A stretch of 51,972 bases of DNA, from the NCBI GenBank assembly GCA_964470715.1, contig CAYYDZ010000005.1, positions 1 through 51,972 of the forward strand, read 5' to 3'. The notes beneath the pieces were generated by a model. It searched no databases. It worked only from the letters and a program-made list of their open reading frames with translations, and was not told the origin of the DNA. Below, piece by piece: positions 1-3,566 of this stretch; the first letter of the stretch is position 1, and each line of letters starts with the position of its first letter. A program made the translations under genes and the position numbers. The DNA comes from an uncultured Microthrixaceae bacterium (lineage in GTDB: Bacteria > Actinomycetota > Acidimicrobiia > Acidimicrobiales > DATDAH01).

Positions 1-61
1 CGCACCGAATCTGCTGAGGTCCCGAGGCGTGCGGCCTCGATCAGTCCCCCTCAGATCCCCG

Positions 62-70
62 TGTTGTGAT
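62..70 (+). promoter_or_regulatory. Extended -10 half (TGn-TGTGAT) of the IS110 circle-junction promoter
   Basis: TG at 62-63 and TGTGAT at 65-70. This lies 17 nt after TTGACA (1442-1447) when 1454 is joined to 55. Confidence 0.65.
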
Positions 71-75
71 GGGTC

Positions 76-255
76 CACCGGCACGGAGCGACGGCTTCGT
101 ACGGTCGAAGGCCGGGCCGTGGGCTGACCCATCTCAGATCTCGACCCCTGCGGGGTGTCCTCGTTCGGAAGTGTCGCCCTCGGCCCGGACCTTCGGAACC
201 GGTCTGACTTGATAGGAGCGTTGATCTCTCAACGGGGATGTGTCGACCGGTCCTC
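76..255 (+). ncRNA. Putative IS110 bridge RNA (5' hairpin, target-binding loop ~114-186, donor-binding loop ~198-251)
   Basis: 164-171 TTCGGAAG is the reverse complement of 1454-1461; 212-219 ATAGGAGC equals 1447-1454; 232-239 ACGGGGAT is the reverse complement of 55-62; 129-137 CCATCTCAG matches 46-54 at 7/9. Closing stems: 114-119/181-186, 121-128/173-179, 198-208/242-251. The 5' and 3' ends are estimates. Confidence 0.8.
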
Positions 256-284
256 TCACCCTAACGATCCGAGAGGAGCTCATA

Positions 285-1445
285 ATGGACAGGAAGTCGA
301 CCAGGAACACCCGCGACATGGCCGGGGTGCCCGATGCCGGCAACGTGGTCGGTGCCGACCCCCACAAGCACACCGTGACCGCGAGCGTGCTCGACGAACG
401 AGGCGGGGTGCTGGGAACCGGGACGTTCCGTGTGTCCGGGGACGGGCACCGTGCCATGGAAGCTTGGGCGCTCGAGTTCGGACCGATCGCCCGTTGGGGG
501 ATCGAAGGTGCCGGTGGCCTCGGCCGCCACACCGCCATGTACCTGATCGGCCAGGGTCACGACGTCCGTGACGTGTGCCCGAACCGCACCGCGGAGCAGT
601 CCCGCCGGCGACGCGACGGCAAGACCGACGCGCTGGACTCGGCGCGGGTCGCTCGCGAGACCCAGGCCGACCCGGCCATGCCGACCGCGTTCAAACGCGC
701 CGCGGGCGACGCCGGACCCGACGAGACCCACGAGCTGTTGGCCTTGTGGCACAACGCCCGACGGTCGATCCTCAAGTCCCGCCAGCATCTCCTCAACGAG
801 GCTGAGCACCTCCTCAACGATCTGCCAGAAGCGCTGCGAGCGGAGCTGCCCGAGACCAGCGAGGTCCGCGCCCGGCTCCGAGCCCTCGCTCACCGTGACG
901 CCTCGGCGGCCTGGGATCCGGCGACTACATTGCGGCTCCGACTGCTCGACGGTCACACCGCCACGGTCGCCGACCTCGACGCCCAGGACCGAGAGGCGGC
1001 CACCGAGCTGCGCCGCCTCGGCCGAGTCGCAGGGTCGACGCTCCATGAGCTGTGCGGGATCGCGGAACGGATCGAGGCCGAGCTGCTCGTGGAGGTCGGG
1101 GACCCCCGCCGCTTCACCGGCGAGGGGGGCTTCGCCCGCTTCAACGGGACCGCGCCCCTACCGGCCTCCTCAGCCGAAGGCGACGGGGAGCCGGTCCGTC
1201 ACCGGCTCAATCGGGGCGGCAACCGCCGAGTCAACGCGTGCCTGCACCGCATGGCCGTGACCCAGCTGCGCTGCGAACCCCGCGCTCGCAAGATCTACGA
1301 CAACGCCCGTCGGCGCGGCCACACCAAGAAAGAAGCCATGCGCATCCTCAAACGACACCTCAGCGATGTCGTCTACCGGCGAATGACCCTCGACCTCCAG
1401 GCCCGCCAGGCGGCTCAGGCACCAGCCCTACAGGTCGCCTCTTGA
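285..1445 (+). CDS. IS110-family transposase / bridge recombinase
   Basis: RuvC-like DEDD motifs GADPHK, GIEGAG, KTDALD; C-terminal Tnp domain FARFNGTAPLPASS with the candidate catalytic Ser. ATG 285 follows GAGAGGAG (271-278); the ORF track start at 240 lies inside the predicted ncRNA. Confidence 0.95.
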   Translation: MDRKSTRNTRDMAGVPDAGNVVGADPHKHTVTASVLDERGGVLGTGTFRVSGDGHRAMEAWALEFGPIARWGIEGAGGLGRHTAMYLIGQGHDVRDVCPNRTAEQSRRRRDGKTDALDSARVARETQADPAMPTAFKRAAGDAGPDETHELLALWHNARRSILKSRQHLLNEAEHLLNDLPEALRAELPETSEVRARLRALAHRDASAAWDPATTLRLRLLDGHTATVADLDAQDREAATELRRLGRVAGSTLHELCGIAERIEAELLVEVGDPRRFTGEGGFARFNGTAPLPASSAEGDGEPVRHRLNRGGNRRVNACLHRMAVTQLRCEPRARKIYDNARRRGHTKKEAMRILKRHLSDVVYRRMTLDLQARQAAQAPALQVAS

Positions 1446-1447
1446 CA
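1442..1447 (+). promoter_or_regulatory. -35 hexamer TTGACA at the IS right end
   Basis: Consensus TTGACA, containing the transposase stop codon TGA (1443-1445). Confidence 0.7.
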
Positions 1448-1559
1448 TAGGAGCTTCCGAAGCGCCCCATTGCCTCGAGATCGCGGTGTCCCGCAGTCGA
1501 TGGGGCCGCGCGGAGCCCCGGGGCTCCGAGGCGGAGTCGCACGGTGAGGGCGGTCACCT

Positions 1560-3566
1560 GTGGTGACTACCGTGGATCATGTGCGCCTCGCCCCGTCGGC
1601 CGGTAGCGGCTTTCGTCGGGACATCCAGGGGCTGCGGGCCCTCGCGGTGCTCCTGGTCGTCTTCTACCACGCCGGGTGGGGGTTCTCCGGAGGCTTCGTC
1701 GGCGTCGACGTGTTCTTCGTGGTCTCCGGCTTCGTGATCACCGGCATGCTCCTGCGCGAATTCGATTCGTCGGCATCCATACGACTGCGCTTGTTCTACG
1801 CCCGGCGGGCCAGACGACTGCTCCCGGCATTGGCGCTGCTGCTCGTCGTGGTCCTGGTCGCCTCGACGTGGATACTCAGCCCCTTCGGTCAACAGCAGTG
1901 GGCGGCTCGCACTGCGGCGGCGGCCTGTGCGTTCGTGGCGAACCTCTACTTGTACAAGAGCCTGGCCGGCTACTTCGCGCCGGCCGCCGAGACCAACCCG
2001 TTCCTGCACCTTTGGACCCTCTCGGTGGAAGAGCAGTTCTACCTCGTGCTGCCTGCCGTGCTGCTCGTCGCTCTCCGTGTCCGCGCACGGGTCGCGCCAC
2101 TCCGGTCGTCGCGCCTCGCGGTCGGCGTGGTCATGGGAGCGCTGTCGTTCGGGTCGCTGGCGCTCTGTTGGTCGCTCACCAGCGGCCACCGTCCGATTCC
2201 GGTCGCCGATCCCCGCCGGTTCGCCTTCTTCTCGACCCTCACCCGGATGTGGGAGTTCGGCGGCGGTGTGCTGTTGGCCGTCGCCGGTCGACGACTGGCG
2301 GCACTCGGGGAGCGGACCGGCCTGGTCGCGGGGCTTCTCGGCGGCGCATTGGTGCTCTGGGCTTCGCTGCGCTTCGACGCCGACACCGCGTTCCCCGGCA
2401 TCGCGGCCCTCCTGCCGGTGGGGGGGACCGTCCTGTTGATCGTGGCCGGTGCGGCGTCGGCGCAGGTCGCCCGACCGCTGGAATGGCGACCGCTGACCTG
2501 GCTGGGGGACCGCTCCTACAGCTGGTATCTCTGGCACTGGCCGTGCATCGTGTTCGCCCGTGTGCTCTGGCCGGGCAATTCTCCGGTGGTCACCGCAGCG
2601 GCCCTGCTCTCACTCGTGCCTGCGGTGCTGGCCTACCAGCTCGTGGAGCGACCCCTCCGCGAGCGGCGGTCCGTGATCGGCTGGCGTGCGGTCCGGCTCA
2701 CCGCGGCCTGCCTCGCGGTTCCCTTGCTGGTGGGCGGAGCGGTCGCCGTCCGCTCGGGCGCCGTCCGGGCCGAGGAGACGGCATCGGCTGCTGCCCACCC
2801 CCACCGGGAGGGCGCGCTCCCCGACCCGGCGCAGCTCGCGGAGCGCACGGCGGCCATCCGTGCCGGGTGCCTCGGCGACCCAGGGGGACCGGAATGGCCG
2901 GCGTCGGACTGCACTTTCGGCGCGGCCAGCGGCGAGGGGACGGTGTTGCTCCTTGGTGACTCCAAGGCCGCCGCCCTCGCCGATGTCACCACCGAGGCCG
3001 CCAGCGCAGCGCACCGTCGCACCGCGGTCTGGACGCGAGCCGCGTGCCCGTTCCTGGTGCCGAGCAGCTACGTGCCCCACGATTGTGCGGACTGGGAAGC
3101 GGCCGCGTTCCAGCTGGTCGACGAGCTCGACCCCGATCTCGTCGTCTTGTCGAACCGCACTCCGAACGACACCACCGAGGACGACTTCGACTACTGGGCC
3201 GCGCAGCTCGACGCCACCCTCGATCGACTCGACGAGATGGGGGTGCCCGCCCTGCTCGTCTCGGATTCGCCGGAGCTCCCCGCCGAGCCCGTGCAGGCCT
3301 TGACCTCGGCGTCCCACGCGGTCGTCGTGCTCCCCGCGTCCGAGGCGCGGGCTCAGCTCGAGCCGATGCTGACGCGTGAACGGGCCGTCGTGGAAGGCCA
3401 TCCCGGCGACGCGGTCGTCGACACCATGCCCTCGGTCTGTGACCCCGACTGCCGGTCGGCGGGCGACGGTGCGTGGTGGTACTTCGACGCCCTCCATTTC
3501 ACGCCCCGGGGTGCAGCCCGGCTGATCGATCCCATCACTGCGGGTGTCGCCGGCCTCCTCGACTGA
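1560..3566 (+). CDS. Acyltransferase-3 + SGNH fusion (OafA/OatA-like O-acyltransferase)
   Basis: RRDIQGLRALAVLLVV, GGFVGVDVFFVVSGF, HLWTLSVEEQFY, GDRSYSWYLWHWP; C-terminal SGNH motifs LLGDS and DALH. Confidence 0.92.
   Translation: MVTTVDHVRLAPSAGSGFRRDIQGLRALAVLLVVFYHAGWGFSGGFVGVDVFFVVSGFVITGMLLREFDSSASIRLRLFYARRARRLLPALALLLVVVLVASTWILSPFGQQQWAARTAAAACAFVANLYLYKSLAGYFAPAAETNPFLHLWTLSVEEQFYLVLPAVLLVALRVRARVAPLRSSRLAVGVVMGALSFGSLALCWSLTSGHRPIPVADPRRFAFFSTLTRMWEFGGGVLLAVAGRRLAALGERTGLVAGLLGGALVLWASLRFDADTAFPGIAALLPVGGTVLLIVAGAASAQVARPLEWRPLTWLGDRSYSWYLWHWPCIVFARVLWPGNSPVVTAAALLSLVPAVLAYQLVERPLRERRSVIGWRAVRLTAACLAVPLLVGGAVAVRSGAVRAEETASAAAHPHREGALPDPAQLAERTAAIRAGCLGDPGGPEWPASDCTFGAASGEGTVLLLGDSKAAALADVTTEAASAAHRRTAVWTRAACPFLVPSSYVPHDCADWEAAAFQLVDELDPDLVVLSNRTPNDTTEDDFDYWAAQLDATLDRLDEMGVPALLVSDSPELPAEPVQALTSASHAVVVLPASEARAQLEPMLTRERAVVEGHPGDAVVDTMPSVCDPDCRSAGDGAWWYFDALHFTPRGAARLIDPITAGVAGLLD

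What the first reader, a model, noticed from the sequence alone, without database searches (positions are those of the whole stretch)
46..1461. IS110 element with a readable bridge RNA: four guides match both element ends and both target flanks
Seen: the non-coding DNA upstream of the DEDD recombinase holds four segments in the order LTG-RTG-LDG-RDG. 129-137 CCATCTCAG matches the left flank 46-54 (7/9, same sense). 164-171 TTCGGAAG is the exact reverse complement of 1454-1461 (right flank). 212-219 ATAGGAGC is identical to the element right end 1447-1454. 232-239 ACGGGGAT is the exact reverse complement of the left end 55-62. Each pair lies on opposite sides of an internal loop closed by stems (121-128/173-179 and 198-208/242-251), each with an inner hairpin (144-156 and 219-234). 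Known: in the IS621-type mechanism an ncRNA with target- and donor-binding loops programs recombination. Inference: this is an intact RNA-guided recombinase with a GC-rich actinobacterial target, CTCAG(C)TTCCGAA, potentially reprogrammable by editing the guides. I cannot tell whether this particular element has been described.
Basis: partly seen in the sequence, partly recalled or inferred. Interest (0 to 1): 0.93.

Follow-up and report, generated by a model that had tools for sequence, protein, structure and literature searches.

The report
Ordinary IS110 element with bridge RNA

Summary
The four matches are in the sequence exactly as stated and are not chance (0 of 20,000 shuffles reach all four). 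The region is a 1,400-bp IS110-group element. It has a 386-aa DEDD/Ser recombinase whose model folds like IS621 and ISCro4, and a ~180-nt bridge RNA upstream with a 5' hairpin, a target-binding loop and a donor-binding loop.

About 115 homologous loci show 48 different left target guides and 44 right target guides that track their own flanks. The donor guides track the element ends, and the stems show compensatory changes.

Comparison of homologues and an empty allele of this very locus show the shared core is TC (56-57 and 1456-1457), not AG. A55 belongs to the target. The target is CCTCAGA-TC-CGAAG, not CTCAG(C)TTCCGAA. The two "exact 8-mers" at 164-171 and 232-239 are guide + core + handshake nucleotide(s), so they match the post-recombination junctions.

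The locus is occupied in some strains and empty in others that are 99.4-100% identical, and identical copies sit next to at least three right flanks, so the element was recently mobile. RNA expression and activity are inferred, not shown.

Verdict: new member of a known kind. One empty allele (T1) has an unexplained footprint-like sequence.

The parts
49..55 (+). Left target half (LT, CCTCAGA). This is host DNA, not element. A55 is LT position 7.
   Evidence: It matches LTG 132-138 at 6/7. In homologues, the 7 nt before the core track the LTG (match 0.51-0.86 vs 0.26-0.39 shuffled). The sequence is retained in empty alleles.
56..57 (+). Left copy of the TC core.
   Evidence: TC is the only dinucleotide shared by both junctions across the family. 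Occupied minus T2 = 1,400 bp with one TC.
56..1455 (+). The IS110-group element, 1,400 bp counting one core copy (equivalently 58-1457).
   Evidence: Empty allele T2 (L019, L021) vs occupied locus. Identical copies next to other flanks. Single copy in the window.
58..62 (+). Right donor half (RD, CCCGT), pairs with RDG.
   Evidence: RD position 3 varies C/G/A and the RDG changes to match in most homologue pairs; all distinct pairs agree at 3-5 of the first 5 positions after the core.
62..70 (+). Putative extended -10 (TGT + TGTGAT) of a promoter completed only in the circular form.
   Evidence: By eye on the joined ends: TTGACA, 17 nt, TGTGAT. Family consensus cTTGACAT..AGCT-TC-CC.GTGTTg.aaT. 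Inferred; the -10 is weak, and no sigma-70 site was called in the integrated copy.
77..105 (+). 5' stem-loop of the bridge RNA. The RNA's 5' end at about 77 is inferred.
   Evidence: MFE fold. [quoted passage not shown]
107..194 (+). Target-binding stem-loop (TBL): helices 107-111/190-194 and 114-128/173-186, inner hairpin about 143-159.
   Evidence: 14 of its 17 pairs show changes on both sides.
132..140 (+). LTG, TCTCAGA plus core-binding TC (139-140). Same sense as the target top strand, so it pairs with the bottom strand.
   Evidence: 8/9 with 49-57. 48 distinct LTGs in homologues track their left flanks, 0 of 2,000 shuffles.
161..169 (+). RTG, TCGTTCG plus core complement GA (168-169). 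Reverse complement of TC-CGAA; only 164-169 pair with this site.
   Evidence: RT positions +1 to +5 match the reverse-complemented RTG at 0.94, 0.95, 0.79, 0.67, 0.48 across 44 guides, vs about 0.3 shuffled.
170..171 (+). TBL handshake guide (AG), complementary to CT = last two bases of the element's right end (LD6-7).
Evidence: In L074/L092/L157, LD7 T->G is accompanied by A->C at the first handshake base. Little variation, so statistics are weak. Concept from PMC11208158.
199..250 (+). Donor-binding stem-loop (DBL): helix 199-208/242-250, inner hairpin about 220-233.
212..222 (+). LDG: ATAGGAGC (212-219) equals 1447-1454. G220 lies opposite LD7 and is unpaired. TT (221-222) lies opposite the core (second base a G:U wobble).
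   Evidence: LDG variants AGGAGC / AGAAGC / GAGAGC / AGGAGT recur in the matching right ends. LD7 matches LDG in only 17%, like the mismatch-tolerant LD7 of IS621 (PMC11208160).
232..238 (+). RDG, ACGGG plus core complement GA (237-238). Reverse complement of TC-CCCGT (56-62).
239..240 (+). DBL handshake guide (TG). T239 is complementary to A55 (LT7).
   Evidence: The first handshake base is Watson-Crick complementary to LT7 in 78 of 85 distinct sites, with four pair types. The second base pairs in only 7 of 85.
285..1445 (+). Recombinase CDS, 386 aa, RBS GAGAGGAG at 271-278. DEDD = D25, E74, D115, D118; Ser = S296.
   Evidence: Pfam PF01548 and PF02371. These residues are invariant in 29 homologues. 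They align to the IS621 and ISCro4 motifs GID / IEA / KTDAxD / YESG. Foldseek top hits are 8wt6 and 9t56, E about 1e-13 to 1e-11.
1442..1447 (+). TTGACA, putative -35 of the circle-junction promoter. It overlaps the stop codon.
   Evidence: Its apparent invariance is partly by construction, because the pattern used to find right ends contained it.
1447..1455 (+). Left donor half (LD, ATAGGAGCT), the element's right end.
1456..1457 (+). Right copy of the TC core.
1458..1462 (+). Right target half (RT, CGAAG). Host DNA.
   Evidence: CGAA matches RTG. All three right flanks of identical copies begin TC-CGAAG.

Best explanation
Window 56-1455 is a canonical IS110-group insertion sequence that moves by bridge-RNA-guided recombination.

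Inferred transcription: a ~180-nt RNA is made from the left end (about 77-255). It is probably made mainly from the excised circle, where the right-end TTGACA and a left-end TGT-TGTGAT form a promoter across the junction.

The RNA folds into a 5' hairpin and two stem-loops, each with an internal loop.
[quoted passage not shown] - The bases 3' of RTG (AG) and of RDG (T) are handshake guides. They pair with the last bases of the other DNA's left half once the top strands are exchanged.

A tetramer of the DEDD/Ser recombinase (CDS 285-1445) then exchanges strands at the TC core. This inserts the 1,400-bp circle without duplication beyond the core.

Shown here: the anatomy, the register, guide-flank and guide-end covariation, stem covariation, fold and catalytic-residue conservation, and presence/absence polymorphism.

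Inferred from IS621 and ISCro4 work: that the guides act as RNA, the chemistry, the handshake role and the junction promoter.
For: - The matches are real and non-random.
- Empty allele T2, CCCCCTCAGA-TC-CGAAGCGCC, equals the occupied locus minus 1,400 bp. Its flanks are 99.7-99.97% identical to the occupied ones over 1.3-3.5 kb (99.4-100% across all empty contigs).
- Identical or 99% identical copies lie next to at least 2 left and 3 right flanks. All show ..CTCAGA|TC.. and ..GCT|TC|CGAAG.
- In 116 loci, LT -7..-1 tracks the LTG and RT +1..+5 tracks the RTG, with 0 of 2,000 shuffles reaching the observed match. This is the same geometry as IS621: a 9-nt LTG including the core and a short RTG (PMC11208160).
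- LDG and RDG variants recur in the element ends.
- The DBL handshake base pairs with LT7 in 78 of 85 sites.
- The target loop is variable and the donor loop conserved, as reported for the family (PMC11208160).
- Stems: 95.9% paired, 18 of 26 pairs compensatory, 0 of 500 shuffles.
- Protein: Pfam domains; a profile hit to ISCro4 and IS621; an AlphaFold model (pLDDT 77.9) whose best PDB matches are IS621 and ISCro4 synaptic-complex chains, E 6e-13 to 1e-11.
- In one MAG (CAWJCQ01), two sub-families with different guides each sit in sites that match their own guides.
Against: - There are no transcript, binding or recombination data for this element.
- No Rfam family matched.
- The NCBIfam IS110 model scores 117.8, below its cut-off of 140.
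- The -10 of the proposed junction promoter is weak (G at position 2), and no promoter or terminator was called in the integrated copy.
- The RTG matches only 4 target bases beyond the core at this site. All three natural sites share a mismatch at RT5.
- The LTG has one mismatch (T132 vs C49).
- The commoner empty allele T1 is not the simple LT-TC-RT sequence and is unexplained.
- Metagenome contigs mix left and right flanks (A-a, A-b, A-c, B-a, B-b). This may be assembly chimerism, so the number of true sites is uncertain.
Confidence: 0.9

Rival explanations
1. The element is 55-1453 with an AG core, and it inserts into CTCAG|CTTCCGAA. The four guides pair with flanks and ends without covering the core.
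For: The four 7-8-nt matches fit this reading at face value. AG is present at both junctions (53-54 and 1452-1453).
Against: - The predicted empty site CTCAG+CTTCCGAAG was not found in any of the 10 contigs shown for this locus; T2 is CTCAGATCCGAAG.
- In homologues, the base before TC varies (A/G/C/T) together with the LTG and with the DBL handshake base, so it is target DNA.
- AG is not conserved at the junctions of homologues, whereas TC is.
- Under an AG core, RTG and RDG would not cover the core (TG and GT instead of CT), unlike the family rule (PMC11208160).
Confidence: 0.03
2. The internal copies of the ends and flanks are DNA-level features, such as sub-terminal repeats or protein-binding sites, and no guide RNA is involved.
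For: Nothing here shows transcription. LDG and RDG are literally internal copies of the termini.
Against: - The target-loop segments copy host flanks that differ between elements (48 LTG types), which a protein-site model does not predict.
- The strand asymmetry (left guides same sense, right guides reverse complement), the handshake covariation and the compensatory stem changes that preserve an RNA fold are those of the solved IS621 and ISCro4 RNA complexes. The protein model matches those complexes.
Confidence: 0.04
3. The architecture is intact, but this copy is no longer mobile. It is a fixed relic whose presence/absence pattern reflects deletion and assembly artefacts.
For: - Allele T1 looks like an imprecise loss rather than a clean site.
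- Flank combinations in short contigs may be chimeric.
- Some homologous copies in MAG CAWJCQ01 are frameshifted and have a mutated TTGAAA.
Against: - The ORF is uninterrupted with all catalytic residues.
- Copies are 99-100% identical at protein level across many samples and lie next to at least three different right flanks, each fitting the guides.
- T2 is exactly the clean site.
Confidence: 0.08

Closest known systems
IS621 (E. coli) bridge recombinase and bridge RNA (Durrant et al. 2024, PMC11208160; Hiraizumi et al. 2024, PMC11208158; PDB 8wt6-8wt9)
   Same: - ncRNA in the left end upstream of the CDS, with a 5' hairpin plus target- and donor-binding internal loops.
- A 9-nt LTG (7 + 2-nt core), a short RTG that includes the core, and an LDG with unpaired position 7.
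- Handshake bases 3' of RTG and RDG, with covariation at position 7 only.
- Target loop variable, donor loop conserved.
- A -35 in the right end.
- DEDD + Ser catalytic set; best structural match.
   Different: - Only about 20% protein identity; the sequence profile reaches it at E = 3e-3.
- The protein is 386 aa versus 328 residues in the solved chain.
- The core is TC rather than CT.
- The host is a GC-rich (71.5%) actinobacterial-type genome.
- The right end is only about 10 nt, and the -35 overlaps the stop codon.
- The target is not shown to be a REP element.
ISCro4 bridge recombinase (PDB 9t56)
   Same: Same fold and synaptic-complex family. It is the best sequence-profile hit among solved structures (E = 5e-5) and an equal-best fold hit.
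   Different: About 19-20% identity. Nothing else was compared here.
Classical actinobacterial IS110-group elements (IS110 and IS117 of Streptomyces, IS900/IS901/IS902 of Mycobacterium). Named from my own knowledge; not compared here.
   Same: Same family and phylum, no terminal inverted repeats, site-specific insertion, long left end. A Streptomyces homologue (L087, 51% identity) has the same RNA scaffold and matching guides.
   Different: The identity of this element with any ISfinder entry could not be checked, because ISfinder is not available. The closest genomes are Acidimicrobiia MAGs at 80-81%.
IS1111-group elements with seekRNA / right-end bridge RNA
   Same: Same recombinase family and the same principle of RNA-guided donor-target pairing (PMC11208160).
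   Different: There the RNA lies in the right end and long sub-terminal inverted repeats are present. Here the RNA is in the left end and the right end is about 10 nt.

Membership tests
IS110 family, IS110 group (bridge recombinase elements) | [quoted passage not shown] | tested here: met
   - Pfam hits at 45.7 and 52.3 bits, both above their cut-offs.
- D25, E74, D115, D118 and S296 are invariant in 29 homologues and align to the IS621 and ISCro4 motifs.
- Foldseek top hits are 8wt6 and 9t56.
- The NCBIfam NF033542 score is 117.8, below its cut-off of 140.
IS110 family, IS110 group (bridge recombinase elements) | Long left non-coding end, short right end, ncRNA upstream of the CDS (as opposed to IS1111, where it is in the right end) | tested here: met
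   The left end is 227 nt (58-284). The right end is about 10 nt after the stop codon.
IS110 family, IS110 group (bridge recombinase elements) | Scarless insertion at a short core shared by donor and target; no terminal inverted repeats; no duplication beyond the core | tested here: met
   Occupied locus = T2 + 1,400 bp, with TC at both junctions (here TCC, because RT1 = RD1 = C). Terminal inverted repeats were not searched for with the repeat finder.
Bridge RNA (IS621 type) | [quoted passage not shown] | tested here: met
   The inner hairpins vary in length and were not captured by the consensus.
Bridge RNA (IS621 type) | First loop: LTG same sense as LT + core and RTG reverse complement of core + RT, both covarying with the insertion site | tested here: met
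   48 LTG and 44 RTG types, 0 of 2,000 shuffles. See the alignments.
Bridge RNA (IS621 type) | Second loop: LDG same sense as LD + core and RDG reverse complement of core + RD, matching the element's own ends | tested here: met
   The ends vary little, but the changes are matched: AGGAGC / AGAAGC / GAGAGC / AGGAGT in LDG and LD, and C/G/A at RD3 with the RDG. The LDG shuffle test is weak (38 of 2,000) because only 6 types exist.
Bridge RNA (IS621 type) | Handshake guides: bases 3' of RTG / RDG complementary to position 7 (and 6) of the non-cognate DNA | tested here: met
   DBL handshake base 1 vs LT7: 78 of 85 Watson-Crick pairs, four pair types. The TBL handshake AG vs LD6-7 CT is nearly invariant, with one compensatory lineage (L074/L092/L157), so it is statistically inconclusive on its own.
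Bridge RNA (IS621 type) | Promoter reconstituted across the RE-LE junction of the circular form | tested here: inconclusive
   TTGACA, 17 nt, TGTGAT with an upstream TG, seen by eye. The -10 is weak, the -35 'invariance' is partly by construction, and the tool cannot scan the joined sequence.
Bridge RNA (IS621 type) | The RNA is expressed, binds the recombinase and is required for donor-target recombination | not testable with these tools
   Needs RNA-seq or RIP, binding assays and recombination assays.

The most novel reading that the evidence does not exclude
The commoner empty allele of this locus is T1: CCCCCTCAGA-GCT-TC-CGTG-CGCCCC. It occurs in strains 99.4-100% identical to the occupied one. 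T1 may be a footprint left by an aberrant bridge-RNA-guided event, or by imprecise loss of the element. It keeps the last three bases of the element's right end next to the core, and it destroys the LTG register, which would immunise the site against re-insertion. If so, natural populations record non-scarless outcomes of bridge recombination that the current scarless model does not describe.
Probability: 0.15. Interest if true: 0.45.

Novelty: new member of a known kind. Interest (0 to 1): 0.3.

Why it matters
It adds a well-resolved natural example from a GC-rich, uncultured actinobacterial (Acidimicrobiia-like) lineage that is only about 20% identical to IS621. Its clade supplies dozens of naturally reprogrammed target loops on one conserved scaffold, and it shows clear natural covariation of the handshake position. 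This is useful as an orthologue for tool mining and as an independent check of the IS621 rules (9-nt LTG, short RTG, unpaired LD7, handshake at position 7). It does not change what is known about the mechanism. The practical lesson for the scan is about register. Exact 8-mers at RTG and RDG span guide + core + handshake, so they match junctions rather than substrates. Reading the target from them gives the wrong site.

Tried and rejected
- Rfam scan of 1-1700 at E <= 1: only a chance xrRNA hit, no bridge-RNA family.
- Single-sequence phmmer against the PDB: only a spurious repeat-protein hit (Tako8). The profile search was needed.
- BLAST of the element against plasmids: only 85-bp hits at 76-79% identity in Roseomonas and Rhodococcus IS110 genes.
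- No second copy of the element in the window.
- Sigma-70 and terminator scan of the integrated copy: none.
- The first MAFFT attempt, anchored on ORF starts, was too gappy and dropped the window. It was replaced by anchoring on the left end.
- tRNA adjacency as a general target: only 1 of 22 loci (L178, tRNA-Leu).
- Empty sites for the other two right flanks (b, c) could not be looked up.
- T1 as the pre-insertion site was rejected. Insertion at its TC would give junctions that are not observed.
Full report
**Observation.**
- 129-137 CCATCTCAG vs 46-54 CCCCCTCAG: 7/9.
- 164-171 TTCGGAAG is the reverse complement of 1454-1461.
- 212-219 ATAGGAGC equals 1447-1454.
- 232-239 ACGGGGAT is the reverse complement of 55-62.

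The left match runs on to 140, giving CTCAGATC at 133-140 = 50-57. In dinucleotide shuffles of 76-255, each 8-mer alone is reached in 1.5-8% of trials, and all four together in 0 of 20,000. The ORF 285-1445 (386 aa) carries DEDD_Tnp_IS110 and Transposase_20. The MFE fold of 55-284 gives a 5' hairpin and two long stem-loops with internal loops. No Rfam family matches.

**Boundaries, from other copies and empty sites.** Proteins identical or 99% identical to this one occur on about 30 metagenome contigs. Their junctions show two left flanks (..GTCCCCCTCAGA|TCCCCGTG and ..CCACCCCGCTCAGA|TCCCCGTG). They also show three right flanks, all reading ..ATAGGAGCT|TC|CGAAG and then diverging.

Looking up the neighbouring 668-aa acyltransferase gene found contigs of the same locus without the element. 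Two empty alleles exist.
- T2 (L019, L021) reads CCCCCTCAGATCCGAAGCGCCCC. This is the occupied sequence minus exactly 1,400 bp, with one TC kept.
- T1 (L016, L020, L023, L024) reads CCCCCTCAGAGCTTCCGTGCGCCCC.

Flanks of the occupied, T1 and T2 contigs are 99.4-100% identical over 1.3-3.5 kb. So these are strains of one population that differ by the presence of the element.

**Homologues and covariation.** Scans of GTDB genomes and JGI metagenomes returned 159 loci at 51-85% protein identity. They come mostly from Acidimicrobiia, Solirubrobacterales and other Actinomycetota MAGs, plus Chloroflexota, a Microbacterium and a Streptomyces. The left-end DNA is alignable in nearly all of them.

The alignment shows a conserved scaffold with two variable windows in the first loop:
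- CUGAC(C/U)C(A/G) – [7 variable nt] – UC
- [variable nt] – GA – AG – UGUCG

The second loop is much more conserved: GAUAGGAGCGU(U/C) ... AC(G/C)GGGA(U/C/G)G.

Element ends were located by conserved end motifs, independent of the target guides. The results are as follows.
- The 7 nt before the left TC match the LTG at 0.51-0.86 per position, against 0.26-0.39 when guides are re-dealt among sites. Positions -8 and -9 do not covary.
- The 5 nt after the right TC match the reverse-complemented RTG at 0.94, 0.95, 0.79, 0.67 and 0.48, against about 0.3.
- None of 2,000 shuffles reaches either mean. There are 48 LTG types and 44 RTG types.
- LDG variants (AGGAGC, AGAAGC, GAGAGC, AGGAGT) recur in the matching right ends.
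- RD position 3 (C/G/A) is matched by the RDG in most pairs.
- The base just 3' of the RDG's GA is complementary to the last target base before the core in 78 of 85 distinct sites, with four pair types. The next base is not (7 of 85).
- LD position 7 is almost never matched by the LDG (0.17).

In one MAG (CAWJCQ01), two sub-families with different guides (CTCAGA-TC-AGAA and GCTGATA-TC-GGAC) each sit in sites that fit their own guides.

**Register.** TC is the only dinucleotide shared by both junctions across the family. The base before it varies with the LTG, so it is host DNA. The published rules for IS621 are as follows. [quoted passage not shown] The LTG is 9 nt and the RTG is short. LD7 is mismatch-tolerant (PMC11208160). 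Two handshake bases 3' of RTG and RDG pair with positions 6-7 of the non-cognate DNA after top-strand exchange, with covariation mainly at position 7 (PMC11208158).

Applied here, these rules give:

| Segment | Window | Sequence / note |
|---|---|---|
| LT | 49-55 | CCTCAGA |
| core (left) | 56-57 | TC |
| RD | 58-62 | CCCGT |
| LTG | 132-140 | includes core-binding TC |
| RTG | 161-169 | 164-169 used at this site |
| TBL handshake | 170-171 | AG |
| LDG | 212-219 | then G220 unpaired, TT 221-222 opposite the core |
| RDG | 232-238 | includes core complement GA |
| DBL handshake | 239-240 | TG |
| LD | 1447-1455 | ATAGGAGCT |
| core (right) | 1456-1457 | TC |
| RT | 1458-1462 | CGAAG |

That is why they match the integrated junctions (LD-core-RT and LT-core-RD) rather than the substrates.

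**RNA structure.** On 82 distinct homologues, RNAalifold predicts helices that correspond to window 107-111/190-194, 114-128/173-186 and 199-208/242-250. Of all cells, 95.9% are paired, against 27-52% when partners are slid. 18 of 26 pairs have changes on both sides, and 0 of 500 shuffles reach any measure. The inner hairpins (about 143-159 and 220-233 in the MFE fold) vary in length and were not aligned.

**Protein.** D25, E74, D115, D118 and S295/S296 are invariant in 29 homologues. A profile of these homologues reaches ISCro4 (9t56, E = 5e-5) and IS621 (8wt6, E = 3e-3). The GID, IEA, KTDAxD and YESG motifs align. An AlphaFold model (mean pLDDT 77.9) has IS621 and ISCro4 synaptic-complex chains as its 11 best PDB matches (E 6e-13 to 1e-11, TM 0.50-0.65, about 20% identity). 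TIGR-Tas proteins and RuvC come next. NCBIfam's 'IS110 family RNA-guided transposase' model hits at 117.8 bits, below its cut-off of 140.

**Expression (inferred).** Joining the ends gives cTTGACA-TAGGAGCT-TC-CCCGTGT-TGTGAT. That is a perfect -35, a 17-nt spacer, and a weak -10 preceded by TG. The family consensus is cTTGACAT..AGCT-TC-CC.GTGTTg.aaT. The pattern used to find right ends itself contained TTGACA, so its invariance is partly by construction. No sigma-70 site or terminator is called in the integrated copy. This fits the published finding that IS110 circles reconstitute a promoter across the core (PMC11208160) and that bridge RNA is weakly expressed from integrated IS621 (PMC13626964). 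It is not shown here.

**Verdict.** The element is a canonical IS110-group bridge-RNA element. The boundaries, the core and the stated target are wrong by 1-3 nt, and the interest was overrated. Bridge RNAs were predicted in 85.7% of IS110-group elements and thousands of orthologues in 2024 (PMC11208160). I could not check ISfinder, so whether this element has a name is unknown. The closest genomes are Acidimicrobiia MAGs at 80-81%.

**Unexplained.** Allele T1 differs from T2 only at the insertion point. It carries GCT, the last three bases of the element's right end, directly before TC, so that AGAGCTTCCG resembles the right junction GGAGCTTCCG. It then reads TG where T2 has AAG. A deletion between the GA repeats at 54-55 and 1451-1452 would give CTCAGAGCTTCCGAAG, which is close but not identical to T1. 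Insertion into T1 at its TC would give junctions that are not observed. T1 should no longer be a target, because it reads AGA-GC where the LTG requires AGA-TC. Whether it is a footprint remains open.

Noticed in passing
L016:2379-2403, L020, L023, L024 (same locus as window 46-1470, empty): Empty allele T1, CCCCCTCAGAGCTTCCGTGCGCCCC, differs from the clean empty allele T2 (CCCCCTCAGATCCGAAGCGCCCC; L019, L021) only at the insertion point. It keeps GCT from the element's right end. The flanks are otherwise 99.4-100% identical. It may be an excision or deletion footprint.
   Followed up: partly
L001-L015 (copies of the window's element): Contigs combine two left flanks and three right flanks in five ways (A-a, A-b, A-c, B-a, B-b). 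For example, L011 and L012 share the left flank but differ on the right. This is either assembly chimerism across a 1.4-kb repeat or rearrangement between copies.
   Followed up: no
window 1458-1475 and right flanks in L003/L006/L012 and L007-L009: All three natural right flanks share TC-CGAAG(C/A)GCC, and both left flanks share CCCC(C/G)CTCAGA. That is more than the guides require, and it includes a shared mismatch to the RTG at RT5. The target may be a repeated host motif. It does not recur in this 52-kb window.
   Followed up: partly
L027-L031, L083 and L034-L040, L090-L097 (MAG CAWJCQ01, Acidimicrobiia): One genome holds at least 6 copies of one sub-family and at least 8 of another, with different guides. 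Each copy sits in a site that matches its own guides. Several copies of the second sub-family are frameshifted (the protein match breaks near residue 224). L090 and L091 also have TTGAAA in place of TTGACA. L027 has a foreign sequence replacing the left end upstream of the LTG.
   Followed up: partly
L178:811-893 and the element start at about 898: One homologue is inserted a few bases after the 3' end of a tRNA-Leu gene. None of 21 other loci checked has a tRNA nearby.
   Followed up: yes
L146, L048, L058, L166, L169, L062, L175, L041, L059 and similar (mostly Solirubrobacterales): These homologues are larger (about 1.52-1.76 kb, and about 1.8 and 2.2 kb in L041 and L059). In several, a conserved stretch (..GCGCAGTCAAGG..) lies between the stop codon and the TTGACAT..AGCT-TC right end. 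This is extra right-end content of unknown role.
   Followed up: no
window 285-1445 (protein residues 196-357): There is a weak NCBIfam hit to the TIGR-Tas RNA-guided endonuclease model (E = 3.8e-9, 36.8 bits, below the cut-off of 100). TIGR-TasR and TasH chains are the next-best fold matches after IS621 and ISCro4. The resemblance lies in the region C-terminal to the RuvC-like domain.
   Followed up: no
window 1560-3566 and L011/L016 upstream gene: The element sits in the 237-bp divergent intergenic region between a carboxylesterase-like gene (minus strand) and an Acyl_transf_3/SGNH acyltransferase gene. It lies 102 bp upstream of the latter's start, so insertion may affect that gene's promoter.
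   Followed up: no
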